DNA of 44,321 bases from Hyphomicrobiales bacterium (GTDB taxonomy: Bacteria; Pseudomonadota; Alphaproteobacteria; Rhizobiales; BM303). Positions within the stretch are counted from its first letter, which is position 1, and the number at the start of each line of letters is the position of its first letter. Under the pieces are notes generated by a model, which made no database searches, had not been told where the DNA came from, and worked only from the letters and a program-made list of their open reading frames with translations. The stretch is taken from positions 1-44,321 of the forward strand of contig PKTQ01000384.1 in the NCBI GenBank assembly GCA_002869085.1. The letters are read 5' to 3'. Below, piece by piece: positions 24 through 32,233 of this stretch. Position numbers and translations under genes: made by a program.

Positions 24-99
<76 letters not shown>

Positions 100-452: not shown

Positions 453-717
453 ATAATCCCTGACTATTCGTATATACCAACCCCAACACACCCCCATTTA
501 TTCCATATAGATAGAGGTGGTGATTTATTTTATCACATATTTATAGATGGTACAACACTTTTCTATTGACTTAATATATTTTCTCATGTATATGTATATT
601 GTATTTATTTTTATTGACCACGCTTTCGTTCTTTTTGGTGGTTTATATAATCATAAAAACGCTAAATATATTGATGAGACAAACAAAAAAGGAGCAAAAA
701 AACCAAGGGTATTAAGA

Positions 718-933
718 ATGACAATTAATAATAATTTTTTGACACAAGACCAATTATCAGAATCTATTCATATCTCCCCAAGAACACTTGAAAGAATGAG
801 AGTCGATGGAACCGGGCCAGTTTATACAAAATTGGGCAGGAGAGTTGTCTATGAGGAAAGCGATATCGAGACTTGGATCAGTGAAAACAAATTTAAATCG
901 ACATCTGAGTATTCAGCTCATTGTGAAAAATAA
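718..933 (+). CDS. AlpA/excisionase-type helix-turn-helix protein (71 aa)
   Basis: LTQDQLSESIHISPRTLERMRVDGTGPVYTKLGRRVVYEESDIETWI matches the AlpA/Xis (HTH_17-like) pattern. The upstream 57 codons of ORF 547..933 are a low-complexity AT-rich extension and were discarded. Confidence 0.7.
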   Translation: MTINNNFLTQDQLSESIHISPRTLERMRVDGTGPVYTKLGRRVVYEESDIETWISENKFKSTSEYSAHCEK

Positions 934-1309: not shown

Positions 1310-2038
1310 ATGAAAAAGAATCTTATATATCAGAATTACAATAATTATGCAGTGGATTTATTGATGTACAAAATGTTACATGATAATTATTTATTTACAT
1401 TTGATCATGAATTTATAGAAGAATATCTTAGCATTCTATCTGTTCGTGATTTTGATGAGCATTTTGAAAAATACCTATTCTTACAAACTACTCATTTCAG
1501 ATTTAGCGGTAACAGCGTAACCAAACACAACATAAACCACTACTCAGATATGGCGTTCAACGCCTATGGGAATTTCTATAAAGGTTTTTGTAAAAAGCTG
1601 TTGGGAGATAGATTCAACAAAAGGATTCACCTACAGCCCCTATCTATAACATCCCTTGATGTGGCAGGCACGAGGGATCACAGACAATCACCAGGGTTTT
1701 CTCTTCCTCACCTGCATTCCCTTGTCCTAGCGCACCCCAAGACAATTGTTAATTTCAACGACCTGATAAACTGCGAACATAAAGGAAATGACCCACTAAT
1801 TGAGAAAGTTGAATTCAGACCGTATGTAAAAACCGTTGATGGGATTCGAGCGCCAGTTTCCTATTGTAATAAATTTGCCAGAAATCAATTAAAATCCAAT
1901 CTGATAGATAATGCACACACGGTATATCCCAACATATATAAATTAAAGGAATTTCATTTTAAATATATTGATATTTACAAGGATCTAATTGGTTTTTATA
2001 ATAATGATGACCTCTCCTCTATTAAGATGGCAGCATGA
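1310..2038 (+). CDS. putative HUH-type rolling-circle replication initiator-like protein (242 aa)
   Basis: Ordered motifs with typical spacing: LSITSLDV (motif I-like uuTu), PHLHSLVL (HUH, nt 1709-1717), SYCNKF (YxxK, nt 1862-1873). ATG at 1310 preferred over GTG at 1289. Iteron-like array lies upstream. Confidence 0.55.
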   Translation: MKKNLIYQNYNNYAVDLLMYKMLHDNYLFTFDHEFIEEYLSILSVRDFDEHFEKYLFLQTTHFRFSGNSVTKHNINHYSDMAFNAYGNFYKGFCKKLLGDRFNKRIHLQPLSITSLDVAGTRDHRQSPGFSLPHLHSLVLAHPKTIVNFNDLINCEHKGNDPLIEKVEFRPYVKTVDGIRAPVSYCNKFARNQLKSNLIDNAHTVYPNIYKLKEFHFKYIDIYKDLIGFYNNDDLSSIKMAA

Positions 2039-2456
2039 ATAATATTTTTCACTGAATTTCTATTCTGTTGTTATCTTCGATTTTCGTGATATTCTGAGAC
2101 ACAAATGTCGATTTTGGGCGGGAAGCAGACTTTTGCTGCACCGGACATGAATGTCCGTTCTCACAATGGTCTCGGACGAAAAATTTAAGGGTTGAATTTG
2201 TGCTGTTGACCCGAGGCAGATAATTGGCATAGTTCCTTGAACTAGGTGTTTGATGACCAACTTAAAAATGTCCCTCATCGGACTTACATCTTACATTATT
2301 TGTGGCGGTCGAACCAAGCATGCAACGTTGTACATCAGGTCTGTGTGATTTCATTCTGATGTAGTCAGCGGAAATTTTTTCATGCCAATGGAAAACCACA
2401 CCTCAAATCCCTCCAAGTCATATTGGTAGATCAGCCCGATATCAACTTTGGAGGAC

Positions 2457-3236
2457 ATGATGATTAAGAAAACACTTGGTTTCCTATTTGGCGTAGCAGC
2501 CATCATTATAGCAAGTACTGTTTTGGCGAACACCTTTTATCCCCAACGCCTGGAAGCCATCGGCGCCTATCTAACAGCTAAAACTTTTGGTTGGGACGAG
2601 CAAACCTGTGGTTTTTACCCCGTGCAATGCCTGCAGGGTAAATATCGGATGCTTTCCGATACAGAGCGACGCCTGAGCGAAGCCATTGAGATGCTGAAGA
2701 CGGAAGAAGCGCGTGCCAAAAACCTGGTCTCCGAACAGAACTTGCTCAAGCAAAAAAACATGAGCTATCTGAAAAGTGGCCGTGAAGTCTATCTTGCAAA
2801 CGCTTCCAATCCGGATCACTCAGTTGAATTTGCAGGCCGGACATATCCGAACTTAAACAAGCTTAAATTGCAGCTAAAACTGCTTTTCTCGGAAAAGGTC
2901 CAGTTGGCCGAAAGCGCCAAAAAAGCTGCCCAGCTGGAAAAGAGGCTACGCAAGAAGTGGGAAGCATTAATGATCAGGCAGGCAGGTGTGCGTGCCGAAC
3001 GACAGATGATCCCGGGTAAGGTTGCTCTGGTCCGTGGCAATTCAACACTGGTGAATATAAGTGAAAACATCTCCATGATCGATGATCTGGTGGATAAGAG
3101 CGAAGATGGCTTGAAAGGGGCAGAAACTCTTATCGGCACCACTAAGGATCTGATGAAGTCGGAAAGCAGAATTGGAGATGACGACGCGGATCATGATGAC
3201 TTCGAAGCCTTTCTCACCAACCCAAAAGTGCAGTAA
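2457..3236 (+). CDS. N-terminally membrane-anchored coiled-coil protein (PspA/IM30-like appearance, low confidence)
   Basis: GGAGG 4 nt upstream of ATG 2457. TM segment LGFLFGVAAIIIASTVLA, then long heptad-like helical sequence and an acidic C-terminus. Confidence 0.7.
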   Translation: MMIKKTLGFLFGVAAIIIASTVLANTFYPQRLEAIGAYLTAKTFGWDEQTCGFYPVQCLQGKYRMLSDTERRLSEAIEMLKTEEARAKNLVSEQNLLKQKNMSYLKSGREVYLANASNPDHSVEFAGRTYPNLNKLKLQLKLLFSEKVQLAESAKKAAQLEKRLRKKWEALMIRQAGVRAERQMIPGKVALVRGNSTLVNISENISMIDDLVDKSEDGLKGAETLIGTTKDLMKSESRIGDDDADHDDFEAFLTNPKVQ

Positions 3237-3295
3237 AATAAGGCTGTGTGGGTGGGTGTGTTTGCACCCGCCCATGCGAGCTACCCGGAGATTGC

Positions 3296-4243
3296 ATGAT
3301 GCTGGATGAAATATATTGGTACGGAATTGGTTGGGCAAAGTTAAAAGGGAGTCTCGTAAAAACGGCAGTGGCACATGGTTCAGATTTTCTCAACCAGCTG
3401 GCAGCATACGAAGATCCTGATAAAGCAGCGCGTTCATTCTTGGAGAAATATCGTCAAGAAATTCAGAAACTATCTCGTCAATTTAAACATAACAATATGT
3501 GGTCAATTGCGCTGGGTTTGCTCTTCGATGATGATCGTTTCGTGAAAGGAGTGTTGAGAGATCTGAAAGCCCTGTCCGGAGAGAAATTAAAACGTGATGG
3601 CTCGAAACTCGAGGCCGAACAGGCATTTGGTAGATTCGTCACATACTATCTGCTCGACTCCATTCAGGCACTCGATCCAAAAGCTGCCTACCAGCACAAA
3701 AAATGGCGCCGAATAAGAAAACTAAGCAAGGAAATCGAGAGAGAGGGATTTCCATTTGGCCCTGGTGAACGCTGTGCGGACGAGCACATTTCGCAAGTGC
3801 TTGATCGAATTCAAATGGATTTTCCGGATGATCACAACCTTCCTAAAACATTTGAAGGTATCAAAAAATATTTTTACCGCTATTGCGACGATTGTGGGTA
3901 TCCCTCAGCGCAGGAAGTGGGATGGCTCATGTCAGATACAGGATACGCTCCAGACGCTACTGAGTGTGTCGACCACCTCTACCGTCGCGAACCTGAACTC
4001 GCTGAAGCGGTAATGGTGAAATGCGGCTATGTCCTCCCGAACACTGGGTCAATGACAGCCGAGAATTACCGCGAAGAAAACAAACTATCCTTGGGAGAAT
4101 TCAGAAAGCGGATCAAGCAGGCCTTGGAGAAATTACGGGAGTGCGTACTACGGGCCATCTTCGTAAAAAACCGCAATGTTTTGAATTTCGAAGACTACGC
4201 CAAGGCAATTGCCCGCGAGAATGGAGATCGCCATGACAGATGA
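3296..4243 (+). CDS. hypothetical soluble protein (315 aa)
   Basis: GGAG 5-8 nt upstream of ATGATG at 3296. Co-directional with its neighbours. No motif recognised. Confidence 0.65.
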   Translation: MMLDEIYWYGIGWAKLKGSLVKTAVAHGSDFLNQLAAYEDPDKAARSFLEKYRQEIQKLSRQFKHNNMWSIALGLLFDDDRFVKGVLRDLKALSGEKLKRDGSKLEAEQAFGRFVTYYLLDSIQALDPKAAYQHKKWRRIRKLSKEIEREGFPFGPGERCADEHISQVLDRIQMDFPDDHNLPKTFEGIKKYFYRYCDDCGYPSAQEVGWLMSDTGYAPDATECVDHLYRREPELAEAVMVKCGYVLPNTGSMTAENYREENKLSLGEFRKRIKQALEKLRECVLRAIFVKNRNVLNFEDYAKAIARENGDRHDR

Positions 4244-4784
4244 TAAGAAAAGCTTGTCACTTTTAGCTATGATCCTGGCCGATCAGCCTGAAACATCAGA
4301 TGTAGCCGACATTTCCCAGGCTCGTATGTATGAAGCCTTGACCAGCGGTCCTACCTTCACTGAACAGGAGAAACAGAGTCTTTGGCTTTCCCCTACGATC
4401 CGGAATACCTATTTTGGACTCAAGAGGAAAATACTTGCCGAACAGCAAGCGCGGATCCAAGAGGCCGGTGTCAATATGCACGCGTTTCCCAAGGCTGCGG
4501 CGGCTGAAGCAAAGGAATTCATTGTAGAAGCTGACGACTTCAAGGTGATTGTTATCCAGTCTAAGGTGGACAAAAACATCTGGTACCTCACGCTCCAGCT
4601 AAAAAAGAAAATGAGAGGTGCAATTTACCCAATGTCTACCATCTCCCTCGTTGATAGTGAAGGGCTTGAATGGCTTTCAGGACGCCCTGATAAACATGGT
4701 GAAACCAATCAGATCTGGCCACACAAGGGGATTTCTCCCGATCAACTGATTGGCAAAGTATCTCTCGAGATCAATGCGTTATGA
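4233..4784 (+). CDS. hypothetical protein (183 aa)
   Basis: ATG 4233 preceded by GGAG. Overlaps the stop of the upstream gene by 11 nt, which suggests translational coupling. Confidence 0.6.
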   Translation: MTDDKKSLSLLAMILADQPETSDVADISQARMYEALTSGPTFTEQEKQSLWLSPTIRNTYFGLKRKILAEQQARIQEAGVNMHAFPKAAAAEAKEFIVEADDFKVIVIQSKVDKNIWYLTLQLKKKMRGAIYPMSTISLVDSEGLEWLSGRPDKHGETNQIWPHKGISPDQLIGKVSLEINAL

Positions 4785-4806
4785 GCAGTTGGAAGTGAGG
4801 ACCACC

Positions 4807-7542
4807 ATGATCAATATTAGCGAGCGGATGCACGCAAACAGAGATTTGATTGGTAGAGTTGAATATGAGCTAAGAGAGGGATTGAAAACGTTAGTGGAAT
4901 TTCGCTTGCGAAGGAAATTCAAAGAGAACTGGAAAAAGGAAGTTGATGATATTCTAGGAGGGAATAGTGCAAATAAAAATACGGTCTATGTATCTCGCGA
5001 TCCAGTTGGGGACCTTCAATGGGATTGCACGGCTCTACTAAAGATAATCCAAAAGAGATCCTGGGAAATATTTCCAAACAAGCTGCAAAATGAAGCAAGA
5101 GACCTAGCGTATAATTTACGAAAATATCGCAATGATGAACCCGGCCATGAAAAGACTAGGCGTATTAATTATTCAAATGCAAGGGTCAACAAAACCATCA
5201 ACATGACAATCGAGCTGCTGGAGTTGGTCAAGCAGGCCTCTATAGCCTTCAGCTGCCAGTACGGTGGCATTGACGCGGAAAAGGCAATCAAAGAAATCGA
5301 GAGGCATGTCGAAGAACTCAAAAACAGGCGGAGAAACAATGCTGAAAACACAGGAGACAGCGCCAACGCTACTCCAAAAGATACCGAGCACCAAAAAGAA
5401 GGTTTGAATTCACCAGAAGAAAGTCCAAATCGGAAAGAGTATCGGAGCTCTGCCTTTATTACGAAACAACATGAAAAAGGAGCTGTTCTCTTTACGATAG
5501 TAGAAGCCGGAACACCTTTTTATGGCTCAATCTGGTGCGAAGTAATTGAGCGCGACGAACAGGTTAATCATAACGTCCGAGCGTTTGGTCCAGATGAGAA
5601 TTTGGAACAGATCGTGGTCGACGCTAGATGGAAGGAAACTAGGGGGAGGCACACCGGATTTGACAAGTTTGTTTATGCGTATTTTGATCCACGCAGTTTT
5701 ACCGGGAGAAGTTGTGGGCTCGCTCTTGCCATCGCCGACAAAAGGGCGCGCTATGATCCCGAAAACCTTCTGGATATCCCTGTCCTTGTCGCCACCGGAG
5801 ACTTGCCGATCGACGGTCATGGAAAGGTGATCGGTATAAATCACTTCAAAGAAAAGCTGAGCCTTGTTGATGATACCCTGAAAGTGCCGGCTCAGTTCAT
5901 TTTTCCGAAGGCGAATCGACCGCGGCAGGGCACTGAAGAATTCAGCATACTTGAACGCATCAAGGCTAAAGGTATCATTTGCCGTCCTGTTGAGAATATC
6001 AATAATCTGTCAGATCTTTGGACAGCACCTGAAGACAGAGCCAAGACAGACGACAAGACTAAAACCCACAAGCCTCATGAGATCTCAACATCTGAGTCTT
6101 TGGACGTGAAGGCCCATCCATTTTCCAAATATGCCTGGGTGGGTATGGCTGCTGGAGTTCTCGGTATTGGGGTCGTCACGCTACTGGCAGATCGCTGGAT
6201 GTCATTTCTCCCCGATCCCGTCGCTGAAGCAGCGCGAACGGAAAGACTGACAGCAATTGAAAACGCCTACAGCCATGTGACTGCTATTTCTGCGAAATCT
6301 TGCAATGATCTTGTCTCAGCCGTTGATCGACTGACGCTGGAGGATAGCGGTTACCTCAATCAGAGCCACAAGAAGGCGATAAGCCAAAGCGATGACTGTC
6401 GAGCCAGGCTGAAGCAAAGCCAGTCTGTTCTGGCGAGCTTGATGGCAAGCGTTAAACAGGCCGGCACTCAGCCCAATCCGGATAGCGATATCAAAGTGGT
6501 TGAAATTTTAGCTAAGCTTGATTTTGTCGATCCTGCGTCTCTCACTGCCGGACAGGGCAATGCCTATAAATACGCCCAGGGCGCAAAAGGCCGTGTCGAA
6601 GAGGCACGTACGCTCATCAAGGCACTGGGGCCATTGCAGACCGTTGATGAACGGTCCACAGCGAAAGCCTGCCAGGACGTACTCGCTGCCAATCAGAAAC
6701 TGGACCAATATGGCCAGCAGTATCTTAAGCACTCCGGATACGATATGGAATCTTCTGTGCGCCTCTGTAACCAGATGGCGATCGCCAGTGCCGAGCGCAT
6801 CGCCAGGCTTGAATCAGCCATTGCAGCGGCAAAGAAGAGACCAACTCTTGAGAGCTATTCACAAATGATCGAGGTATATGACGGGCTCAAGATCTATGAT
6901 AGGTCGCACCTTGAAACCGGCGTGACTCAATTTGTTGAGACAGGCAAATTGAGCCACAGGCAATACAGGATGCAGCTGGAAGGCCTGAACAAGACCCTGA
7001 GGGCCTGGAGGTCCAAACCGGCGTCAGCCACGCTGTTTGAGGTGATCTCATCATTGGACAGGCTCCTTGCTTCCGAACGGGAAGGTATCGCTTCAGGAAA
7101 CCTGCAAACAGTCAAGGATGCAATGGCCGTTCGTACGAGGGCCAACAGGAAAGCTAACGCAATCCAAAAGGGTGAAATTTCCAGTCTGCGCTGGTTTGTT
7201 CGTGATATTGATGGTGCTGACATTCCAAACGGCTTAGCCGGCTCCTTAAGACGCTTGTTGCATCAGTCAGGCCTGAAACTGGCACAGAACATTGACGACA
7301 GCGATATTGCCATAACCGTATCTTTATCTATGCGCTCGGCGCTCACGAATGTCGGTCAGGTCAATGTTCATGGCGCCATCGTGAATCTAAATATGCAAGC
7401 GGCCTGGACCGTCGACAACGAAGTTCTGTTCATAGAGAACGGCTCAGCCAATGGCACAAGCACGCTGAGTGCTGAGAGAGCGAGAGACCAAGCCTACCAG
7501 AAAGTGATGGAGAAGGTTGTGTCGGTTCTATCAGAGAGGTGA
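4807..7542 (+). CDS. multidomain protein: N-terminal HEPN-like domain + Lon (S16)-like protease domain + one TM helix + ~440-aa helical C-terminal region
   Basis: HEPN Rx4-6H motif YRNDEPGH (nt 5128-5148) preceded by LLKIIQKRSWEIF (Swt1-like HEPN look). Lon-like Ser/Lys dyad context FTGRSCGLALAIA (nt 5704-5718) ... VLVATGDLPIDGHGKVIGINHFKEKL (Lys ~5848-5856) ... FIFPKAN. TM helix AWVGMAAGVLGIGVVTLLA (~6133-6190). Confidence 0.75.
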   Translation: MINISERMHANRDLIGRVEYELREGLKTLVEFRLRRKFKENWKKEVDDILGGNSANKNTVYVSRDPVGDLQWDCTALLKIIQKRSWEIFPNKLQNEARDLAYNLRKYRNDEPGHEKTRRINYSNARVNKTINMTIELLELVKQASIAFSCQYGGIDAEKAIKEIERHVEELKNRRRNNAENTGDSANATPKDTEHQKEGLNSPEESPNRKEYRSSAFITKQHEKGAVLFTIVEAGTPFYGSIWCEVIERDEQVNHNVRAFGPDENLEQIVVDARWKETRGRHTGFDKFVYAYFDPRSFTGRSCGLALAIADKRARYDPENLLDIPVLVATGDLPIDGHGKVIGINHFKEKLSLVDDTLKVPAQFIFPKANRPRQGTEEFSILERIKAKGIICRPVENINNLSDLWTAPEDRAKTDDKTKTHKPHEISTSESLDVKAHPFSKYAWVGMAAGVLGIGVVTLLADRWMSFLPDPVAEAARTERLTAIENAYSHVTAISAKSCNDLVSAVDRLTLEDSGYLNQSHKKAISQSDDCRARLKQSQSVLASLMASVKQAGTQPNPDSDIKVVEILAKLDFVDPASLTAGQGNAYKYAQGAKGRVEEARTLIKALGPLQTVDERSTAKACQDVLAANQKLDQYGQQYLKHSGYDMESSVRLCNQMAIASAERIARLESAIAAAKKRPTLESYSQMIEVYDGLKIYDRSHLETGVTQFVETGKLSHRQYRMQLEGLNKTLRAWRSKPASATLFEVISSLDRLLASEREGIASGNLQTVKDAMAVRTRANRKANAIQKGEISSLRWFVRDIDGADIPNGLAGSLRRLLHQSGLKLAQNIDDSDIAITVSLSMRSALTNVGQVNVHGAIVNLNMQAAWTVDNEVLFIENGSANGTSTLSAERARDQAYQKVMEKVVSVLSER

Positions 7543-7685
7543 GGTCGGCGAGAATAAATCATTGTCGCCATTATCTTCGGTGAAGGAAGATGGGAATCAA
7601 GGTAAACGTAAGGAAAAATCCCATCTAATCACTATTTATGTTTCGATGTAGGTGTGCCGAAAAGCAAGTTTAAAGGAAAAATGCA

Positions 7686-8756
7686 ATGAATCCGATTATT
7701 ACTAAAATTAAGAATGCCTACCTTATAATAATATATATTATTTCATTTACTTCAATATCAATTACTATTATGATATTCACCACGTTATCTTCAAGGGCGC
7801 AAAACATCAACAATTCCATATACGATATTATCTCACAGCTTCAGCGCGGCAATGTTAAAACCGTAGCGGTACTTAACTTCGTTGACGTAAGGGGGCGTGT
7901 TAGAGCCCTTGGTAAATACCTTGCTGAGGAACTGTCGATTACGCTGGTCAAAAGTCAAGATACAATCAAAGTCATAGACCGCGGGAATCTCAACCGTTTA
8001 TTGGATGAGCTGAATCTGTCTGAGTCCGGCCTGATAAATCCTGAGAACGCTAAAAAACTAAGTAACATATCTGGGATAGATGCCCTCATTTTTGGCAGCA
8101 TAGTTCCTACGGGCGATAGCTATCGGTTGCAGTTGAGAGGGATCTCCGTTGGTACGGCTGAAGTGATTGCGGCTGCGGGCTTGGATATAAGGGGTGCGGA
8201 ACACCTGAAAGCCTTGTGGAGAGATATTGTATCCTTGAATAATAGTTACGCCATCAAATCCAAAGATGGGTCAATGGCCGCTGAATCAGGCATATCCAGG
8301 AATGATCATGTTAAATATAATGAAAGGTTGCAAGTTAATTTGATAAACCTATCGAGGTCACAGAAAATTGTTTACGGCCAGAAGTTTTACTCTTTGAACT
8401 CAACATTTTCTGTTAAGAACTTGGAGAATAAACCCGTTGAGATCATATTCGTGAATAAATATTACTTAATGTATCAGGATCTATCAGGTCTAACATGCTC
8501 TCCCACCAGCGACTGGGGACGAATTGAGACCAACCTGGGAAAAGCGAGTTCCGCATCTGCTTTCGGCTACGGCAAAGGACAGATGATTGGTCCTGGTGAG
8601 GAATTTATGGTCGTTGTGAAGAGTTTAAATTGCCCAGCCCCAGCAAAACAGGGTAAGGGTAATTTTTCTATAAAAATGCTTTCGAAGAACGAATCAAATC
8701 GAACATTTCAGGAAAGCTTTAACTTCAGAGATATTGAGTTAACAGGAACTCACTAA
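7686..8756 (+). CDS. membrane-anchored protein with CsgG/FlgO/LpoB-like domain
   Basis: N-terminal TM YLIIIYIISFTSISITIMIFTTL, then VAVLNFVDVRG..LGKYLAEELSITLV..VIDRGNLNRLLDELNLSESGL..GIDALIFGSIV, which is the pattern of the CsgG/FlgO/LpoB fold. The C-terminal ~170 aa are unassigned. Confidence 0.7.
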   Translation: MNPIITKIKNAYLIIIYIISFTSISITIMIFTTLSSRAQNINNSIYDIISQLQRGNVKTVAVLNFVDVRGRVRALGKYLAEELSITLVKSQDTIKVIDRGNLNRLLDELNLSESGLINPENAKKLSNISGIDALIFGSIVPTGDSYRLQLRGISVGTAEVIAAAGLDIRGAEHLKALWRDIVSLNNSYAIKSKDGSMAAESGISRNDHVKYNERLQVNLINLSRSQKIVYGQKFYSLNSTFSVKNLENKPVEIIFVNKYYLMYQDLSGLTCSPTSDWGRIETNLGKASSASAFGYGKGQMIGPGEEFMVVVKSLNCPAPAKQGKGNFSIKMLSKNESNRTFQESFNFRDIELTGTH

Positions 8757-9103
8757 AGGCAAATTGGCTGGTTAGTCAGATCTCGATGAGTTCGGGTATT
8801 AGCGCGATTTAAGGGAAGCTTGACTTTATCGAAACTGTCAATCGGCATTGAATGTTGACCCCTGGATCGCTGCCGCGGGTAAAAGCATGGCCGCCTCCTT
8901 CGCTCGTGGCGTTATGAGGGATCACAATGCCGTTAAAGCCGCAATCACAGAGCCATAGTCGAACGGACAGACCTAAGGTCAGGTAAACAGGTTGAAAGTG
9001 GTCAAGCGTCAAATGTATGGGTGCTCTGAAGCCTGGAATCTCCGCCATTTCTGATTAGAGTTTTTCGCTGTCATTTCCCTGGCTGGGATAAGGAGCGGAA
9101 GCG

Positions 9104-9250
9104 ATGAAAGCATCGAGGTTCACGGACGCACAGAAGGCGTTCATCATCAAACAGGGCGAGGACGGCACGCCAGTGGCAGAGATTTGCCGCAAGGCGGGGA
9201 TCAGTCAGGCGACCTATTTCAACTGGAAGAAGAAATATGCCGGCCTGCTT
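9104..9250 (+). pseudogene. IS3-family transposase OrfA, N-terminal remnant
   Basis: MKASRFTDAQKAFIIKQGEDGTPVAEICRKAGISQATYFNWKKKYAGL is a typical IS3/IS407-type OrfA HTH. Homology stops after ~49 aa and no OrfB follows. Confidence 0.7.
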
Positions 9251-9346
9251 CGCCTGAGCTACGCAATGGCTCCGCTCAGCAGGCCTTGACGGAAACCAAA
9301 TCAACGGAAATAAACGTGAACGGATTTTACTAGCAAATGGCCCGGA

Positions 9347-9637
9347 TCAGGGGGCTGGGTCAAGTTGCATGTCCATTTTATGGGCAAAATCATTCCGCAG
9401 TTTTCCCAAAGCCTTCAAAGATTCCTGAAGTTCTTCATGCAACCCCATTGCAACTGCGAGAGTAATTTTCTGGTGGTAACTCAAATTCATTGAACTCAAA
9501 TGTCTTGAGTACGGAATAAGCTGATCGAGCAATTCATCCAAAACGCTTTCAACAAAAATATGAGAGCGAATGACAACACCTAACTCATCCTCACCCATGA
9601 GTAATTTATAAAATTTGTCTGCCTCTGGATCGTTCAT
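9347..9637 (-). CDS. small MtlR-like HEPN domain protein (96 aa)
   Basis: YHQKITLAVAMGLHEELQESLKALGKLRNDFAH has the HEPN RNxxxH motif in the MtlR-like context. AGAGGTGG lies upstream of ATG 9637. It sits 42 nt downstream of the helicase gene. Confidence 0.7.
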   Translation of the reverse strand: MNDPEADKFYKLLMGEDELGVVIRSHIFVESVLDELLDQLIPYSRHLSSMNLSYHQKITLAVAMGLHEELQESLKALGKLRNDFAHKMDMQLDPAP

Positions 9638-9679
9638 TGCCACCTCTATTTCACACACACATGAATATATAATAGGGTA

Positions 9680-12217
9680 TCAAGCCTTTCGCTGTGCCAT
9701 TTCACGTAGGCTCGTCCCCGCTAGACGATAGAATAATTTGTCTATGTCCCATGAACTGTCGTCGCAAAGTTCACGTGTTCTTGGGGAACGTTCCAAAGGA
9801 ATGTGGCGACGAAGATCACTAACTAAGGCAAACAATTGATTTTGAAGCTCAACAAGACTGCTAGGCAAACAAATCTTCATAGCGTTTGACGGGTTACCGC
9901 GCGCTTCGATCGATCCATCCGGACCTACATAGAGAAGACCAAGGCAAGTGCTGTCCGGATAGTTATCGGTGATCCAGCTCAGGTGATCGTGCCCTTGTGA
10001 TATATCCTTCTTCCAGTAGGTAGCTGGGTTATCCTTATCGGTTTTGAGTTCGAACGCTATACATTGCGATGATGGCTCATCCACCCACAGGACATCTGGT
10101 CCGGTTCCAACGTCATTGTCCGGGCGAGTAGCCACGAATCCGAGAATTTCTCCTAGGACCCTTGTCGCTTCTTCCATTCGTCGTGTTGAAGCTCCACTCA
10201 AATCCATGAGCTGTGTGCGCCAGCGCCCAAACTCGCGATCAAAGTGTTCATTTAACGTCAATCCAACCAACCAATCGACATTGCGCGCGAACTGTGAGGC
10301 GTCGTCTCCAAGAGTAGCTGTATTTCGAGGACCAGGTCTCCGTGGAAGAGCAATATTGTTACCCAGCCGGTTCATGGCCCGACGATAGGCCAAGTGAGCA
10401 CTGTCTATATCTTCCTCAGCTTCCAAGGCAGCGCCAACCCAAACAGATTGCCAGCCAGAGAGTACTGGATCTACATGTCCGGTAGCCTCCGCAGCAGAAT
10501 CCAGAATGTTTCTTGCTTCCGTAACATCTCCGTTCCACATTGCGGCTGCATAAGAAGCCTCGGCAAGTGCGGCAGCGACCATTTGCTCTTCAGCCTCTTC
10601 CGCACGCTGAACTTGATCCTGGTCGAGATCGCCCCGTTGGATATTGTCGCCGTAAAAGTCAAGCCAGGAAGGCTCACGCGATAAAACTGCATTAATCGTT
10701 TGCAGAACAGCATCACCCTCCTTAATTTTCATACCTTCCTGAACAGTACGTCCCAATAGAATTTGCCGCTGTAACAACTGCGGAAGAAGGGCGACATTTC
10801 GGTCATTGTTAAACCACGAATTGAGTTCGGTTCCAACTATAAGAAAGGCGCCGTAGTCGTTTCTCCCTCGATTGATTCGACCGAACAACTGGACAAGTCG
10901 ATTGGCGATGCGCGTGGAATGCAGATTTAGCATTCGGAGGAACTCCCACTGATAGCGCTCTATCAGGGAAGCGCCTGATGGTAGTCCATCCATCACCATA
11001 ACGCGGCAAGTGTCGTGCGGCAGGTCGATACCGTCGACCCGGGAAACAAGAACAAATGCGCCATCAGCGGATCGTCGAAAAGCTTCAAGCTCTACAGAGA
11101 AATTCTGTGCGGCAGGGGGCGCCGCCAAATCTTCCCAGTTTCTTGCGGCTGTATAGCTCGGTACTGCAATAAGCACCTTCTGTTTGCCGCAAATCCGTGA
11201 GACAAGGTCGGATGAAACTCCTCCAACAATATTGCGGCCAAACAGGATCAAGCGCTCACCGTTTCCGGCGTCGTTATCCGGTTCAATTACGATATCGGGT
11301 AACCTGCCGAAAGCTCGCACAATATCTGTCTTCGACTTCAGTGTCGCAGATAGATAGACGCGACGGATCGGCCGTTCGAAGACATCGAGTGCGAGAGAAG
11401 GAAGAAACGGTGGCGCTAGCTCGAACATGCCACGACTAAAGAGTAACGCACAACAATCAAGTTTGTCCCGTAAGTGTGCGAAAGGAAATTTAAGATTATC
11501 ATCATCATGGACTCCATGACTGTGCAATAGCGTCAGAAGTCGATCACGACGTTCTGCAAGCCCCCCCGGAGCAGCCATCACGATCGAGGGGTGTTCGCCC
11601 GTCAGACTATCCTCGAAGCGTCCCTCAATACGAAGGTCTCGAAAATGGGGACGAAAAAGTTCAGCGACTTCGTTGAGCAAATCCGGATGTTCCCGCCCGG
11701 AAACAGTCAGAGTGAGAGAGCCACGGAGGATTGCTTCTGCGACGTGCGCATCATCAAAAATGACGGCACCGGGAAAGAACCTGCGCCTGATAGCGCTCAG
11801 CCCGTTGAAGAGGGCGTGATACGTGGTGATACAGAAGCCGCGCCCACTTTCGAAAAGATCGTTGCTGAAATTGGACCGTACTCTAACAGTATGGTCCAAA
11901 CCTATCCGCAAAGCTTCCTGAGACGTCTGATTAACGAGGTCAATAGTTGCACAGACGTAAATGACGTTTTCAATACCTTCATTCACAAGGCTTTGTGCCG
12001 TCAGTAGACCAACGAGGGTCTTGCCAGCACCTGTATTCAACGAGACCAGAACGTCGTTCCTGTCGCGCGCGTCATTCCATTGAACAAGTGCCTCCGCTTG
12101 GCCGCGCCATAGATCGTTTGGCGTACCTGGTAAATTGGGCAGGCGCTCAAATATCTTAATGGGGTCAGTAGGCTGTGCTGCCGTCAACGGCGTACCCAGT
12201 TTCGAAAAATCCATCAC
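9680..12217 (-). CDS. SF2 (DinG/XPD-like) helicase fused to C-terminal PD-(D/E)xK nuclease-like domain (845 aa)
   Basis: LNTGAGKT (motif I), VIFDDAHV (motif II), YLSATL (III), SRVDGIDLPHDTCRVMVMDGLP (DinG/Rad3-type C-terminal signature), QLFGRINRG (VI). C-terminal GPDVLWVD ... IAFELKTDK. Confidence 0.85.
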   Translation of the reverse strand: MMDFSKLGTPLTAAQPTDPIKIFERLPNLPGTPNDLWRGQAEALVQWNDARDRNDVLVSLNTGAGKTLVGLLTAQSLVNEGIENVIYVCATIDLVNQTSQEALRIGLDHTVRVRSNFSNDLFESGRGFCITTYHALFNGLSAIRRRFFPGAVIFDDAHVAEAILRGSLTLTVSGREHPDLLNEVAELFRPHFRDLRIEGRFEDSLTGEHPSIVMAAPGGLAERRDRLLTLLHSHGVHDDDNLKFPFAHLRDKLDCCALLFSRGMFELAPPFLPSLALDVFERPIRRVYLSATLKSKTDIVRAFGRLPDIVIEPDNDAGNGERLILFGRNIVGGVSSDLVSRICGKQKVLIAVPSYTAARNWEDLAAPPAAQNFSVELEAFRRSADGAFVLVSRVDGIDLPHDTCRVMVMDGLPSGASLIERYQWEFLRMLNLHSTRIANRLVQLFGRINRGRNDYGAFLIVGTELNSWFNNDRNVALLPQLLQRQILLGRTVQEGMKIKEGDAVLQTINAVLSREPSWLDFYGDNIQRGDLDQDQVQRAEEAEEQMVAAALAEASYAAAMWNGDVTEARNILDSAAEATGHVDPVLSGWQSVWVGAALEAEEDIDSAHLAYRRAMNRLGNNIALPRRPGPRNTATLGDDASQFARNVDWLVGLTLNEHFDREFGRWRTQLMDLSGASTRRMEEATRVLGEILGFVATRPDNDVGTGPDVLWVDEPSSQCIAFELKTDKDNPATYWKKDISQGHDHLSWITDNYPDSTCLGLLYVGPDGSIEARGNPSNAMKICLPSSLVELQNQLFALVSDLRRHIPLERSPRTRELCDDSSWDIDKLFYRLAGTSLREMAQRKA

Positions 12218-12262: not shown

Positions 12263-14272
12263 TCAATCTTCTGCTGTCACTCCTTCTTGATCGCTCTCCG
12301 GCTCAGGTTCCCGGCGATCGTCGCCATCAGAGACTACGCCTGAAAGAAACTTATGATACTTGTCTTGCAAATGCTTCAGAGCTGTATCGTCGTCCACTTG
12401 GTGTTCCAGCTTCTCTTGGAAGAACTGAAGACGCGCCTTGTTTTCCTCTATGATCTGGGCCCAAGTCTTGATCCCGACGGAGATATTGTCCTTAGAAGAA
12501 ATGACACCACGGTCATCCATGCGGTACGCAGCATACTGATCTATATCGTCTGATATTGCCCAAAACGTCCATTTGACACCGCTCACCGTGTGGAACCGCT
12601 CATCATTTGCAACGCTGATCGCATATTTCTCAACTTGTGTGATTTCTTCATGGCCAATTTTTATCTTGGGCCGTTTCAGCTCAACGATCAGATGTTCGAG
12701 TTCATCAGCTCTGTGCCGACGAAGTGCTCTAGACAGCATGAGGTCAACAATCCCACGCTGCTGGCTGATATGTCTGACCGGCTTGTCGATAACAATGTCA
12801 TCTCCAAGAATCTTCCGGTGTTTCTGCAATACTGCGGTGAGCCCCTTATCGCTGACAGACAGGTTGTATTCCTCACCGAACAGCCAAGTGTTGTCCTCGA
12901 TGATCTTGTGAAGTTGCGAACGCTCTTTGAGCCGCGCTTTCATATCTGGGTCAAATAGGACCTGTTCCAATCCGGTGAGAAACTTTAGTCGGTCCGCGAC
13001 GATCTTGGCGGCACTGATGATTGACGAGAGGGATGCTTCCCGCAGCAATCCGGCGAGCTCTTCCTGTTTCCGCTTTGGCAGCCCCAGAACCTCGCTCATG
13101 ATTATTTGGAGGTCTTCCGGACTCTTTTCGATTGCTGTACGGAGCATCCGAAGGTCGAACTCTTTCTTCTTCGGCGGGGCACTCTCGAAGTCCGGCATGT
13201 AATCGCTTGCCGTTACGGCCAGGATATCGAATACCTTGCGCTCAGCATTCTCCAGTGACGACTTGGCCTCGCCTACATACGGGTAGACATTCTGCGCCTT
13301 CCATGTCTCGACAACCGTTCGAGCACGCTTAGCAGCGCGCTCCCGGAAATAAGCCTTGATAGTTTGTTGCGCTTCTTCGATGCAACCGTTGAGAAAAGGA
13401 TTCATTTCGGCGAGGTCGAGCTGTGCCTCACCATGCAGTTTTGTGATAAATGGTGATTTCAGATAGGCCGAAAAGTGAAACTCGCCGATGTGAAACCGCG
13501 TCGTTACTTTTGAAAGCGGAAAGCCCTGTTCTGTACACAGGTAGAGACCACGAGTCGTCACGTTCTGCCATTCAATGATCTCAAGCTCCACTGGATGCAC
13601 TGCGCTCTCTTCATCTATGTCGTTCAGGTGCGCAATGTGGGTATTGGCTATTGCTATAGCGGGATCTACCTGCCTGCCCTCATACAGTATCGAAATATCC
13701 CGATAGTCTTTCAGGTAAAGTGCAAAAATCTCGGATAATTCCTGCACGGCATTTTCGGGATCAAGGGACCGGTATTCGTGGTGCAGTTCCGATATCTCAA
13801 TCTCTACTCCGGTGCTTCCAGCTTCGACTGCTTCCTCGTCCGAGATACGAACTTCGCGAATATTGTCTTCCAGCATGGTGATATCGTAGGCGCGCAACTC
13901 ACCTGTGTTCGTACGATATGCGACACGCCAATCGGCGACTCGGCCAAGGGCAAACACTTTGAACCGGCCACGGCCTTCATAACCGTGCAGCATACGCTTC
14001 TTCGTTTTAGTTTGACCACCAGGTTTTTTCCACGAGCCACCGAGGCGCGTGAACAAATGCGGAGCATCGTCGTAGGGAATGCCGTCTCCGTTATCACGGA
14101 CAATGATTTTGCTCAATCCCAGTTCGCCGTAATTGAGCTGCACATCAACACGAGCTGCGTCAGCATCCAGTCCATTCCATATTAGTTCGGCGATAGCTTG
14201 GACCGGCTTCGCCTTCGACTGCCGCGCTAGGAAGTCTGGCTGGACCTCAACCGTATATCTGTGCTCAGTCAT
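12263..14272 (-). CDS. GHKL (MORC/paraMORC-like) ATPase fused to C-terminal Shedu/DUF4263-like PD-(D/E)xK nuclease domain (669 aa)
   Basis: Bergerat motifs ELIWNGLDADA (N box), VRDNGDGI (G1), HGYEGRGRF (G2). C-terminal LHKIIEDNTWLFGEEY ... GIVDLML ... LIVELKRPKIKIG ... QVEKY. Confidence 0.85.
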   Translation of the reverse strand: MTEHRYTVEVQPDFLARQSKAKPVQAIAELIWNGLDADAARVDVQLNYGELGLSKIIVRDNGDGIPYDDAPHLFTRLGGSWKKPGGQTKTKKRMLHGYEGRGRFKVFALGRVADWRVAYRTNTGELRAYDITMLEDNIREVRISDEEAVEAGSTGVEIEISELHHEYRSLDPENAVQELSEIFALYLKDYRDISILYEGRQVDPAIAIANTHIAHLNDIDEESAVHPVELEIIEWQNVTTRGLYLCTEQGFPLSKVTTRFHIGEFHFSAYLKSPFITKLHGEAQLDLAEMNPFLNGCIEEAQQTIKAYFRERAAKRARTVVETWKAQNVYPYVGEAKSSLENAERKVFDILAVTASDYMPDFESAPPKKKEFDLRMLRTAIEKSPEDLQIIMSEVLGLPKRKQEELAGLLREASLSSIISAAKIVADRLKFLTGLEQVLFDPDMKARLKERSQLHKIIEDNTWLFGEEYNLSVSDKGLTAVLQKHRKILGDDIVIDKPVRHISQQRGIVDLMLSRALRRHRADELEHLIVELKRPKIKIGHEEITQVEKYAISVANDERFHTVSGVKWTFWAISDDIDQYAAYRMDDRGVISSKDNISVGIKTWAQIIEENKARLQFFQEKLEHQVDDDTALKHLQDKYHKFLSGVVSDGDDRREPEPESDQEGVTAED

Positions 14273-16437: not shown

Positions 16438-16463
16438 GTTATCACACTTGTATTATAGTTTCT

Positions 16464-27173: not shown

Positions 27174-27220
27174 GACTGAAAATCCGCGTGTCGGTGGTTC
27201 GATTCCGCCCCTGGGCACCA
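27174..27220 (+). repeat. 47-nt exact direct repeat of the tRNA-Phe 3' part (= nt 53-99); att site bounding island A
   Basis: GACTGAAAATCCGCGTGTCGGTGGTTCGATTCCGCCCCTGGGCACCA is identical at 53-99 and 27174-27220. The tRNA 5' half is absent here. Confidence 0.9.
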
Positions 27221-32227: not shown

Positions 32228-32233
32228 GGACCA

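What the first reader, a model, noticed from the sequence alone, without database searches (positions are those of the whole stretch)
2457..8756. Five-gene operon combining envelope-facing modules with a HEPN-Lon-TM giant protein
Genes 2457-3236, 3296-4243, 4233-4784, 4807-7542 and 7686-8756 are all on the plus strand. The junctions are a 59-nt gap, an 11-nt overlap, a 22-nt gap and a 143-nt gap. About 400 nt of non-coding DNA precede them and IS debris follows.

The products are:
- a membrane-anchored coiled-coil protein (PspA/IM30-like look, low confidence);
- two proteins with no motif I can recognise;
- a 911-aa HEPN + Lon-like + TM protein;
- a membrane-anchored CsgG/FlgO/LpoB-fold protein.

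A locus that links periplasm- or membrane-exposed domains to cytoplasmic RNase-like and protease-like domains, carried on a mobile island, could be a membrane-perturbation-sensing abortive-infection or stress system. I know of no described system with this gene content.
Basis: partly seen in the sequence, partly recalled or inferred. Interest (0 to 1): 0.8.

Follow-up and report, generated by a model that had tools for sequence, protein, structure and literature searches.

The report
Membrane-spanning HEPN–Lon sensor gene cassette
The five genes are real, and four of them form a rare, unnamed gene cassette kept in the same order in distant bacteria, usually beside phage-defence genes; it probably passes a signal from outside the inner membrane to a protease and an RNA-cutting enzyme inside the cell.

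Summary
All five plus-strand ORFs and their junctions are as described. In the 911-aa protein D, the HEPN call passes Pfam's threshold. The Lon-like call passes a PDB profile search and a structure search, with a conserved Ser-Lys pair. One TM helix follows the Lon-like domain. E has a CsgG/FlgO-type domain. The PspA-like look of A is not supported.

The conserved unit is not the five genes. It is A-(0 to 4 secreted "X" paralogs)-B-C-D, found in the same order in nine independent loci from Alphaproteobacteria, a Gemmatimonadota MAG and metagenomes. Below that lies a three-gene core: B, C and a Lon-like-TM-sensor protein. This core also occurs in short forms without HEPN and without A. E is unique to this window, but it occupies a position where related loci carry other secreted or membrane-anchored proteins.

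Long-form cassettes sit beside PDC-S28, McrBC, Gabija GajB or GmrSD genes, or on mobile elements. No defence or family library names A, B, C or D, and NCBI calls B and C homologs "hypothetical protein".

Best model, inferred: a periplasmic signal clusters D, which switches on the Lon-like protease, acting on the B-C pair much as CalpL acts on CalpT-CalpS, and the HEPN RNase. Weak fold hints suggest B is sigma-factor-like.

The parts
2372..2417 (+). Conserved two-part upstream element: an A/T tract (AAATTTTTT, 2372-2380) and a C-rich block (CCTCCAAG, 2410-2417) 47 nt before the A start. Possibly a dedicated promoter or operator.
   Evidence: The C-rich block CC[CT]CC[ATC][AG]G lies 47-71 nt before the A start in all 9 long-form loci that include the sequence upstream of A. 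An A/T tract lies about 33-40 nt upstream of it. A similar element lies upstream of B in short-form L018. The block alone has P=0.004 in a random 38-nt stretch of the window, and this is the only site in the window with the A/T tract at -38. The pattern was defined after inspection.
2457..3236 (+). A: 259-aa protein with an N-terminal signal or anchor segment, an invariant Cys pair (C51, C58), a long helical region and an invariant FAGxTYP motif. Predicted to lie outside the cytoplasm.
   Evidence: Homologs (E 1e-37 to 1e-47) lead the cassette in L002, L003, L004, L007, L011, L012, L016 and L024. There is no Pfam or PDB relative.
3296..4243 (+). B: 315-aa cytoplasmic all-helical protein, possibly sigma-factor-like (unproven). 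Member of the core triad.
   Evidence: AlphaFold model with pLDDT 73.5 and 16 helices. The top Foldseek hits are sigma factors but are not significant. NCBIfam sigma70-ECF gives E=0.049. Homologs lie upstream of every Lon-like-TM gene examined, long and short.
4233..4784 (+). C: 183-aa cytoplasmic protein with an N-terminal helical half and a C-terminal beta-rich half, joined by a linker with invariant G79 and A88-A89. Overlaps B by 11 nt. Candidate partner or inhibitor of B and candidate protease substrate (inferred).
   Evidence: Always found between B and the Lon-like-TM gene. There is no PDB or family relative.
4807..7542 (+). D: 911-aa single-pass membrane protein. From the N terminus: cytoplasmic HEPN, linker, Lon-like domain, TM helix, periplasmic helical repeats, C-terminal alpha/beta domain.
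4870..5148 (+). HEPN (Swt1-like) RNase domain of D, from the Pfam match through the Rx4-6H motif (R108, N109, H114).
   Evidence: Pfam PF18731, E=1.9e-8, above its cut-off. R108 and H114 are invariant and N109 is nearly invariant in 24 long homologs. The AlphaFold model is of low confidence here.
5479..6066 (+). Lon-like (S16-fold) proteolytic domain of D without an AAA+ module. Candidate catalytic pair: S302 (nt 5710-5712) and K350 (nt 5854-5856).
   Evidence: The profile against PDB hits A. fulgidus LonB (E=1.8e-4), CalpL (0.02) and LonA (0.055). S302 and K350 align with CalpL S152 and K193. Foldseek hits Lon proteolytic domains at E about 3e-7 and prob 1.0. Ser and Lys are kept in at least 90% of 121 sequences.
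6130..6195 (+). Single transmembrane helix of D (residues 442-463).
   Evidence: Hydropathy scan. Helix 442-467 in the model, in a stretch (residues ~440-560) with pLDDT mostly 83-97. A TM helix follows the Lon-like domain within about 10-30 residues in nearly all long and short family members.
6196..7539 (+). Extracytoplasmic part of D: helical repeats with invariant C499 and C531, then a C-terminal alpha/beta domain (about residues 796-911) that also occurs in other proteins.
   Evidence: Alignment A1 and the model. The C-terminal domain is shared with P0004, P0038, P0052, P0107, P0110 and P0121.
7686..8756 (+). E: 356-aa protein with an N-terminal anchor, a CsgG/FlgO-type domain (residues 47-165) and a beta-rich C-terminal half. 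Possible variable accessory; membership uncertain.
   Evidence: Pfam CsgG and FlgO above their cut-offs and a TM segment. Not found in other cassettes, and a GTDB pattern scan found no relative. GC is 40.7% against 46-49% for A-D. No terminator was predicted in the 143-nt gap. Related loci carry other secreted or anchored proteins right after the Lon-like-TM gene.

Best explanation
A-D (perhaps with E) encode a transmembrane signalling and effector cassette carried on a defence island.

Shown:
- D is a single-pass inner-membrane protein. Its HEPN RNase domain and its AAA-less Lon-fold Ser-Lys protease domain are predicted cytoplasmic (topology inferred from the single TM helix and the Cys pairs in the C-terminal half). 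Its helical-repeat C-terminal half faces the periplasm.
- A (and, in other genomes, the secreted X paralogs) is extracytoplasmic.
- B and C are cytoplasmic. They always sit directly upstream of the Lon-like-TM gene, even in short forms that lack HEPN and A.

Inferred mechanism:
1. A ligand or an envelope event, possibly phage-related, is detected by the periplasmic part of D together with A (and X or E).
2. This clusters or re-arranges D.
3. Clustering switches on the Lon-like protease, which cuts C or the B-C complex, perhaps at the conserved Gly/Ala-Ala linker of C.
4. B, a possibly sigma-factor-like protein, is released, as CalpL releases CalpS by cutting CalpT.
5. In the long forms, clustering also brings the N-terminal HEPN domains together into an active RNase dimer, following the logic of Ire1 and RNase L. 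This causes RNA cleavage and growth arrest.
For: Domains of D.

Synteny:
- The order A-(X)n-B-C-D is conserved in the window, L002, L003, L004, L007, L011, L016 and L024. L012 and L023 hold partial cassettes at contig ends.
- B-C-(Lon-like-TM) is conserved in short forms L018, L020, L021, L025 and L026.
- B and C overlap, which suggests coupled expression.

Location of the parts:
- A TM helix follows the Lon-like domain almost universally.
- Conserved Cys pairs occur only in the parts predicted to lie outside the cytoplasm.
- The sensor ends vary: an FGE-sulfatase domain in P0003, DUF4384 in P0015, and 0-4 X copies.

Defence context:
- PDC-S28 lies about 0.9 kb downstream in the window.
- McrBC is adjacent in Tabrizicola. 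That locus is also listed as a viral contig in IMG/VR.
- GajB lies 2.7 kb away in Bradyrhizobium.
- GmrSD is adjacent in L011.
- A relaxase and IS elements flank L016, and an integrase is near L024.

Precedent: Lon-domain oligomerisation drives anti-sigma cleavage in CalpL/T/S (PMC11417357; 10.1101/2024.05.08.593097).

Sigma-like hints for B.

A conserved upstream element is compatible with a dedicated transcription factor.
Against: - There is no experimental or expression evidence of any kind.
- B's sigma-like assignment is below every significance threshold. Foldseek E>=0.06 with TM scores about 0.2. Profile searches against PDB were negative. hhalign against RpoE and FliA sequences recalled from memory was negative.
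- C has no detectable relative, so 'anti-sigma-like' rests only on gene position and analogy.
- The HEPN region of the model has low confidence.
- Short-form triads examined are not obviously in defence islands. The core module may therefore be a general envelope-signalling device.
- The Lon fold also occurs in non-proteolytic contexts such as RadA. However, RadA lacks the conserved Ser-Lys pair (own knowledge).
- E may be an unrelated neighbour.
Confidence: 0.45

Rival explanations
1. A general envelope-stress or extracytoplasmic-signal transduction module rather than a phage-defence system. The Lon-like-TM sensor cleaves a soluble regulator pair (B-C) to change transcription. The HEPN fusion tunes mRNA turnover. 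The island location is incidental.
For: The B-C-(Lon-like-TM) core occurs without HEPN and without obvious defence neighbours in L018, L020, L025 and L026. The module resembles regulated-proteolysis sigma pathways. The periplasmic ends are varied ligand-binding-type domains.
Against: The long HEPN forms repeatedly sit beside PDC-S28, McrBC, GajB or GmrSD and on mobile elements. The cassette is very rare and patchy: a pattern scan found A relatives in 4 of 185,579 species representatives. That distribution fits accessory conflict genes, not core stress pathways. HEPN RNases are typical toxin or effector domains (PMC3710099).
Confidence: 0.25
2. An addiction or toxin-antitoxin-like module that stabilises the island. 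HEPN is the toxin, it is kept in check by C or B, and the Lon-like domain degrades the labile antitoxin.
For: HEPN toxins are common in TA systems (PMC3710099). B and C overlap like TA pairs. The cassette sits on mobile elements. A FitA/PIN TA pair lies next to L021.
Against: This does not explain the conserved large periplasmic domain, the secreted A and X partners, or short forms that keep B and C but have no HEPN toxin.
Confidence: 0.1
3. An envelope-biogenesis or secretion locus: E acts as a CsgG/FlgO-type assembly factor and A-D as accessory factors.
For: E passes the Pfam CsgG and FlgO cut-offs. A and half of D lie outside the cytoplasm.
Against: E is absent from all other cassettes. No curli, flagellar or secretion genes were seen among the neighbours scanned. 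E has no lipobox Cys in its N-terminal segment. HEPN and Lon-like domains have no place in such pathways.
Confidence: 0.03
4. Five unrelated genes that happen to be co-directional on a mosaic island.
For: The island is compositionally mosaic. E differs in GC from A-D.
Against: A, B, C and D keep the same order and strand in at least nine independent loci across phyla, with pairwise phmmer and profile-HMM E-values from about 1e-15 down to below 1e-200.
Confidence: 0.02

Closest known systems
CalpL-CalpT-CalpS (type III CRISPR-associated SAVED-Lon protease, anti-sigma factor, ECF-like sigma factor)
   Same: Both have an AAA-less Lon-fold protease domain with a Ser-Lys pair. D's S302 and K350 align with CalpL S152 and K193, and CalpL is the second-best PDB family for the domain profile. 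Both are three-gene modules with two small cytoplasmic partner proteins. In CalpL, sensor-driven oligomerisation activates the protease, which cuts the anti-sigma factor and frees the sigma factor. B gives weak sigma-like fold hints.
   Different: D has no SAVED domain and there is no cyclic-nucleotide input. No CRISPR-Cas hit appeared among the neighbours scanned, though cas genes were not specifically searched for. Here the sensor is a TM helix plus a periplasmic domain. B and C show no detectable sequence similarity to CalpS or CalpT. The long forms add an N-terminal HEPN RNase and a periplasmic partner, A.
Ire1 / RNase L (KEN-type HEPN RNases switched on by sensor-driven oligomerisation)
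   Same: The logic matches. A sensor domain on the far side of a membrane (Ire1), one TM helix, and a cytoplasmic enzymatic domain fused to a HEPN-superfamily RNase that needs dimerisation (own knowledge; KEN is classed as HEPN in PMC3710099).
   Different: Those proteins are eukaryotic, and a kinase sits where D has a Lon-like domain. The domain order is reversed: HEPN is N-terminal here. There is no sequence relationship beyond the HEPN superfamily. This is an analogy only.
ECF sigma / transmembrane anti-sigma pathways (RseA-DegS-RseP; DdvA-DdvS controlling a CBASS-CRISPR island in Myxococcus, PMC11506125)
   Same: An envelope-side signal is passed by proteolysis to a transcription factor. 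DdvA-DdvS shows that such a pathway can control defence genes.
   Different: In those pathways the anti-sigma factor is the membrane protein and separate proteases cut it. Here the protease itself would be the membrane sensor and the candidate inhibitor C is soluble. B fails the sigma-70 family thresholds.
Membrane-associated bacterial HEPN proteins (Anantharaman et al. 2013, PMC3710099, section on membrane-associated HEPN domains)
   Same: HEPN of the Abi2/Swt1 group forms the cytoplasmic domain of an inner-membrane protein and is proposed to respond to envelope stimuli.
   Different: None of the listed architectures contains a Lon-like domain, the helical-repeat periplasmic region, or the A, B and C partners.
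CsgG / FlgO / LpoB-type periplasmic domains (for E only)
   Same: E residues 47-165 pass the Pfam CsgG and FlgO cut-offs.
   Different: E has no lipobox cysteine. It carries an extra beta-rich C-terminal half with no family match. No curli or flagellar genes are nearby.

Membership tests
HEPN superfamily, Swt1/Abi2-like group (D, N-terminus) | Match to the family profile above its curated threshold | tested here: met
   PF18731: E=1.9e-8, 35.1 bits against a cut-off of 27.5. The same family hits homolog P0003.
HEPN superfamily, Swt1/Abi2-like group (D, N-terminus) | Rx4-6H catalytic motif | tested here: met
   R108-N-D-E-P-G-H114. R108 and H114 are invariant and N109 is nearly invariant in 24 long homologs.
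HEPN superfamily, Swt1/Abi2-like group (D, N-terminus) | All-helical HEPN fold confirmed by structure comparison | tested here: inconclusive
   The model is helical there, but pLDDT is mostly below 60 for residues 1-180. No HEPN entry appears among the 50 PDB hits listed.
Lon (MEROPS S16) proteolytic domain fold (D, residues ~225-420) | Fold match to solved Lon proteolytic domains | tested here: met
   Foldseek top 50 are all Lon proteolytic domains or the RadA Lon-like domain (E about 3e-7, prob 1.0, TM 0.6-0.7). The model has pLDDT 85-97 in this region. The profile against PDB gives LonB at 1.8e-4.
Lon (MEROPS S16) proteolytic domain fold (D, residues ~225-420) | Catalytic Ser-Lys pair | tested here: met
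   S302 and K350 are kept in at least 90% of 121 sequences. K350 aligns with the conserved Lys of the A. fulgidus LonB motif (TQK). S302 and K350 align with CalpL S152 and K193. That these are the catalytic residues of LonB and CalpL comes from own knowledge. Catalysis itself was not tested.
Canonical Lon protease (LonA/LonB) | AAA+ ATPase module fused upstream of the proteolytic domain | tested here: not met
   There is no AAA or Lon_C Pfam hit in D. HEPN plus a disordered linker lie upstream of the domain. D is therefore a Lon-like domain protein, not a Lon protease proper.
CalpL/T/S system | SAVED sensor domain on the protease and linkage to type III CRISPR-Cas | tested here: not met
   The Lon-like domain of D is followed by a TM helix and a periplasmic region. 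No SAVED or cas hit appeared among the neighbours scanned.
CalpL/T/S system | Partner genes encode a sigma factor and its anti-sigma factor | tested here: inconclusive
   For B: NCBIfam sigma70-ECF E=0.049, below its cut-off. Five of the top eight PDB Foldseek hits are sigma factors, but E>=0.06. Profile searches were negative. For C: no relatives.
Sigma-70 family (B) | Significant match to the region 2 and region 4 profiles | tested here: not met
   There is no Pfam Sigma70_r2 or r4 hit at E<=1. TIGR02937 gives 13.2 bits against a cut-off of 42.9. B is not filed as a sigma factor; this is kept as a lead only.
PspA/IM30 (A) | Match to the PspA_IM30 profile or to solved PspA/Vipp1 structures; cytoplasmic location | tested here: not met
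   No Pfam hit at E<=1 and no PDB sequence relative at E<=10. An N-terminal signal or anchor and a conserved Cys pair point to a location outside the cytoplasm.
CsgG/FlgO-type domain (E) | Family profile above its curated threshold | tested here: met
   CsgG 33.8 bits (cut-off 20.8) and FlgO 24.6 bits (cut-off 22.6).
CsgG/FlgO-type domain (E) | Lipoprotein signal with a lipobox cysteine, as in CsgG and LpoB | tested here: not met
   The N-terminal 40 residues of E contain no cysteine (translation). E has a signal anchor or an ordinary signal peptide instead.
Known anti-phage defence systems (PADLOC-DB 2.0) | Any of A-E matches a model of a known or candidate system | tested here: not met
   No hits for A-E at E<=1. 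The neighbouring gene 9680-12217 does match PDC-S28.
Operon / conserved gene cassette | Same order and strand of homologs in unrelated genomes | tested here: met
   Met for A-B-C-D in nine loci beyond the window (two cut by contig ends), and for B-C-(Lon-like-TM) in five short-form loci. Not met for E. Co-transcription itself is not testable with these tools.

The most novel reading that the evidence does not exclude
This is a previously undescribed class of bacterial transmembrane sensor. A periplasm-facing domain directly controls a cytoplasmic, AAA-less Lon-like protease. The protease frees a divergent sigma-like factor (B) from a soluble inhibitor (C). In the island-borne long forms, the same clustering event also arms a HEPN RNase. 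The result would be an Ire1-like immune sensor with two outputs that detects phage or envelope events from outside the cytoplasm.
Probability: 0.3. Interest if true: 0.85.

Novelty: new variant of a known kind. Interest (0 to 1): 0.72.

Why it matters
Most known bacterial defence systems sense infection inside the cytoplasm. A system whose sensor faces the periplasm could detect phage at or before genome entry, or at lysis, through the envelope.

The cassette would also extend the CalpL principle beyond CRISPR signalling. In that principle, an oligomerisation-gated Lon-like protease frees a transcription factor. Here it would apply to a wider family of more than 100 sequence clusters of membrane-tethered Lon-like sensors with interchangeable outer domains.

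The analysis assigns a testable role to three protein families (A, B and C). B and C homologs are annotated only as "hypothetical protein" and A matches no family library.

It also provides a compact set of point mutants (R108/H114, S302/K350) and a conserved upstream DNA element to test.

Tried and rejected
Searches that found nothing:
- Megablast of 2000-9000 against E. coli genomes and plasmids gave no match.
- The word-indexed homolog search with D, with B and with the D-family alignment found only the query itself. Homologs do exist in that collection, so this reflects the limits of the index, not absence.
- A genome pattern scan with D alone found nothing.

Ideas tested and rejected:
- PspA-like A was rejected.
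- hhalign found no relationship between E and the X proteins, between D's C-terminal domain and E's CsgG-like domain, between X and A, or between B and C.
- Profile searches against PDB found nothing significant for A, B, C or X. X gave only weak, non-significant hits to the PA14-bearing regions of glycosidases. That identification of the regions is from memory.
- hhalign of the B family against RpoE and FliA sequences written from memory was negative.
- I considered an anti-Shine-Dalgarno role for the C-rich upstream block. It can pair with A's ribosome-binding site in the window but not in L004 and others, so it fails as a general explanation.

Technical dead ends:
- Taxonomic placement through the neighbouring RNase G gene failed, so the host organism is not identified.
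- L005 (Peteryoungia) turned out to be a different, TM-less chimeric protein without B or C and was set aside.

Full report
**1. Observation**

The junctions are a 59-nt gap, an 11-nt overlap, a 22-nt gap and a 143-nt gap. Each start codon is preceded by a plausible ribosome-binding site. An independent JGI metagenome contig (L001, 13 kb) carries the same genes with the same calls. About 418 nt without a long ORF precede A, and a 61-aa HTH_Tnp_1 transposase fragment follows E. No intrinsic terminator was predicted between the genes, including the 143-nt D-E gap.

**2. Setting**

- A tRNA-Phe gene lies at 24-99.
- The 47 nt of its 3' half are repeated exactly at 27174-27220.
- A tyrosine integrase (25782-27020, minus strand) lies just inside that repeat.
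- The operon therefore lies in an integrative island of about 27 kb.
- The island also carries a PDC-S28 helicase (9680-12217, PADLOC E=0), a GHKL ATPase (12263-14272) and a HerA/mad8-like ATPase (16464-17912).
- A-D form a compositional block of 46-49% GC. The two upstream genes are 31-34% GC and E is 40.7%.

**3. Protein D**

- *HEPN.* Pfam HEPN_Swt1 matches residues 22-110 above its cut-off. An exhaustive HMMER search of 1.84 billion representatives found 121 relatives. In an alignment of D with 23 long relatives, the HEPN Arg and His (R108, H114) are invariant.
- *Lon-like domain.* In the same alignment, a Ser (S302, in GxSxGLA) and a Lys (K350, after an ATG...G.V motif) are invariant in the central domain.
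- *Profile evidence.* A profile of that domain finds only Lon proteolytic domains at the top of the PDB: A. fulgidus LonB (1.8e-4), CalpL (0.02) and LonA (0.055). In the CalpL alignment, S302 and K350 fall on CalpL S152 and K193. From memory, these are CalpL's catalytic pair.
- *Structure evidence.* An AlphaFold model built with 121 sequences is confident for residues 260-420 (pLDDT 85-97) and for most of 440-560. Foldseek against PDB returns Lon proteolytic domains, or the Lon-like domain of RadA, for all top 50 hits (E about 3e-7, prob 1.0, TM 0.6-0.7).
- *No AAA+ module.* D is therefore a Lon-like domain protein of the CalpL kind, not a Lon protease proper.
- *Membrane helix.* One TM helix (442-463) follows the domain. 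A TM helix 10-30 residues after the domain is present in almost every family member.
- *Outer half.* The C-terminal half consists of helical repeats with two invariant cysteines (C499, C531). It ends in an alpha/beta domain shared with several other proteins.
- *Limit.* The HEPN part of the model has low confidence, so the HEPN call rests on the profile and the motif.

**4. The other four proteins**

- *A.* It has an N-terminal signal or anchor, an invariant Cys pair and a long helical region. It has no PspA/IM30 match and no PDB relative.
- *B and C.* They match nothing significantly in Pfam, NCBIfam, PHROGs, PADLOC or PDB. Their homologs in NCBI are named "hypothetical protein".
- *E.* It passes the CsgG and FlgO cut-offs, has an N-terminal anchor and has no lipobox cysteine.

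**5.

Using alignments of distant D and A relatives, I fetched loci from genomes and metagenomes. Homologs of A, B, C and D lie in the same order on one strand in these loci:

| Locus | Source |
|---|---|
| L002 | Pannonibacter MAG |
| L003 | Tabrizicola aquatica |
| L004 | Bradyrhizobium aeschynomenes |
| L007 | Gemmatimonadota MAG |
| L011 (and L012, cut off within B) | metagenome contigs |
| L016 | locus of the closest D relative, P0003 |
| L024 | NCBI assembly GCA_018130305.1 |
| L023 | cut off upstream |

Between A and B these loci carry 0 to 4 paralogous secreted "X" proteins. Each X has a signal peptide, a short coiled coil and a beta-rich domain with a Cys pair.

None of them has an E homolog, and a GTDB pattern scan for E found nothing.

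The cassette is rare. The pattern scan found A relatives in only 4 of 185,579 species representatives.

**6. A smaller core**

About 85 of the 121 D relatives are short proteins (roughly 180-630 aa) that start with the Lon-like domain. They have no HEPN domain. After the TM helix they carry varied outer domains, such as DUF4384.

In all five short-form loci with enough upstream sequence (L018, L020, L021, L025, L026), B and C homologs sit directly upstream of the Lon-like-TM gene. Family HMM E-values range from 1e-19 to 1e-47. There is no A.

The invariant unit is therefore B-C-(Lon-like-TM-sensor). HEPN, A and usually X are additions in the long subfamily.

In short forms, the gene right after the Lon-like-TM gene often encodes another secreted or anchored protein:
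- an NMT1_3-like protein in L018;
- a DUF4384 protein in L020;
- a 176-aa secreted protein in L021;
- an FGE-like protein in L019;
- an X protein in L025.

That is the slot E occupies in the window. I therefore put E's membership at about even odds rather than dismissing it.

**7. What B and C might be**

- An AlphaFold model of B (8 sequences, pLDDT 73.5) is all-helical.
- Foldseek finds nothing significant. However, five of the top eight PDB hits are sigma factors: SigD, two T. thermophilus sigma-A chains, the RsiG-WhiG complex and sigma-28. They have E 0.06-1.7 and prob 0.13-0.69.
- The top viral-library hit is a phage "DNA directed RNA polymerase subunit".
- NCBIfam sigma70-ECF gave E=0.049.
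- The conserved C-terminal stretch of B (G-[IL]-S-R-x-x-F-x-x-R-x-x-x-A-L-x-x-L-R-x-C) looks to me like a region-4.2 helix-turn-helix. This is my reading, not a test.
- Sequence-level tests were negative. "Sigma-like" is a lead at roughly 35-40%, not a finding.
- C has a helical half and a beta-rich half joined by a linker with invariant G79 and A88-A89. I suggest, speculatively, that this is a cleavage site.

**8. Defence association**

Known or candidate defence genes, or mobility genes, flank the long-form cassette:
- PDC-S28 in the window;
- McrBC directly downstream in Tabrizicola, a region also catalogued as a viral contig in IMG/VR;
- Gabija GajB 2.7 kb downstream in Bradyrhizobium (E=5e-241);
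- GmrSD directly upstream in L011;
- a MobA relaxase and IS elements around L016;
- an integrase near L024.

I did not compute a background rate, so this is suggestive rather than statistical. Short-form loci do not show the same pattern.

**9. A conserved upstream element**

- In all nine long-form loci that include the sequence upstream of A, a C-rich block (consensus CC[CT]CC[ATC][AG]G) lies 47-71 nt before the A start.
- An A/T tract lies about 33-40 nt further upstream.
- In the window these are AAATTTTTT at 2372-2380 and CCTCCAAG at 2410-2417.
- A similar pair precedes B in short-form L018.
- The C-rich block alone is expected in 0.4% of random 38-nt stretches of the window. This is the only site in 44 kb that has both parts.
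- The pattern was chosen after inspection, so the figure is indicative only.
- The element is compatible with a dedicated promoter or operator, and thus with the cassette encoding its own transcription factor.

**10. Mechanism**

*Shown:* the domain make-up of D; that the Lon-like domain is tethered by a single TM helix; conserved Cys pairs restricted to the parts predicted to lie outside the cytoplasm; the obligatory B-C-(Lon-like-TM) linkage; and the mobile or defence context of the long forms.

*Inferred:*
1. The outer domain of D, with A and the variable X or E proteins, detects a ligand or an envelope event.
2. This clusters D.
3. Clustering activates the Lon-like protease, as cA4-driven oligomerisation activates CalpL (PMC11417357; 10.1101/2024.05.08.593097).
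4. The protease cuts C or the B-C complex and frees B.
5. In long forms, the juxtaposed HEPN domains form an active RNase, following the logic of Ire1 and RNase L. KEN domains are HEPN per PMC3710099.

I put about 0.45 on this overall picture. Confidence is about 0.9 for the conserved cassette, about 0.6 for transmembrane signalling with protease and RNase outputs, about 0.5 for a defence role, and about 0.35 for the sigma/anti-sigma reading.

**11. Comparison and novelty**

The closest known system in mechanism is CalpL/T/S. Membership fails because there is no SAVED domain, no CRISPR link was seen, and no detectable similarity of B and C to CalpS and CalpT.

Literature searches found no description of a HEPN-Lon-TM protein or of the A, B and C families. 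PADLOC-DB 2.0 has no model for them.

I rate it a new variant of a known kind: a signal-gated Lon-like protease acting on a small regulator pair, with a HEPN effector. It has a genuinely new input side (periplasmic) and a new architecture. If the sigma-release and defence roles were confirmed, it would stand close to a new class.

**12. Verdict**

The finding is more interesting than it first appeared, because the cassette is conserved across phyla and rests on a wider, undescribed three-gene module.

Noticed in passing
window 24-99, 25782-27020 and 27174-27220: A tRNA-Phe gene, a tyrosine integrase (minus strand) and an exact 47-bp repeat of the tRNA 3' half delimit an integrative island of about 27 kb. 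Sequence beyond 27220 has different composition, so it may be a second island in tandem.
   Followed up: partly
window 9347-9658 (-), 9680-12217 (-), 12263-14272 (-): A PDC-S28 helicase (PADLOC E=0) is flanked by two genes. One is a 103-aa ORF with a HEPN-like RNDFAH motif (PHROG 5483, E=8e-12). The other is a 669-aa GHKL-ATPase protein with a weak HSDR_N-like region. They may form one candidate defence unit.
   Followed up: partly
window 15151-17912 and 22304-23878: A HerA/TraG-like ATPase (PADLOC mad8, E=7e-14) follows an unknown 428-aa ORF. Separately, a 524-aa TPR protein has a weak LeoBC match (E=4e-6). These are further possible defence genes on the island.
   Followed up: no
window 28797-35118: A block of about 60% GC encodes an HlyD-type adaptor, an ABC exporter with a C39 peptidase domain, a second ABC transporter and a cNMP-binding protein. 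It looks like a bacteriocin or peptide export locus and lies outside the first island.
   Followed up: no
window 20536-21516 (-), 24698-25447 (+), 42654-43529 (+), 9104-9289 (+): Several IS transposase genes (rve family, one IS481-like) and an HTH_Tnp_1 fragment are present, consistent with a mosaic, much-rearranged island.
   Followed up: no
L002 5461-7482; L003 5597-7345; L004 6723-7334; L011 10783-12928; L012 3548-6888; L016 7653-8495; L024 5841-6452; L025 7253-7876: A family of secreted 'X' proteins (signal peptide, short coiled coil, beta-rich domain with two invariant Cys) occurs in 0-4 copies per cassette, and downstream of a short form in L025. The changing copy number suggests a diversifying sensor or decoy. 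The PA14-like look is unproven.
   Followed up: partly
L005 8800-11511 (Peteryoungia aggregata): A 903-aa protein joins a fragment of the Lon-like domain and part of the helical-repeat region to an unrelated C-terminal region that ends in a HEPN-like RSADAH motif. It has no TM helix and no B or C neighbours. It looks like a rearranged relative.
   Followed up: partly
L002 12006-13307 and L011 17990-18388: A small membrane protein family is conserved just downstream of D in the Pannonibacter-like cassettes (E about 1e-29 between loci) and is duplicated in L002. It may be another lineage-specific accessory.
   Followed up: no
window 547-933 and 1289-2038: Two low-GC genes (31-34%) lie directly upstream of the cassette: an AlpA/HTH_17-type regulator and a 249-aa ORF with no family match. 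They look like island housekeeping genes of different origin from A-D.
   Followed up: no
tool behaviour (versus 81): The word-indexed homolog search returned only the query for D and B, although B and C homologs are present in the same collection. A 'singleton' result from that tool should not be read as absence.
   Followed up: yes
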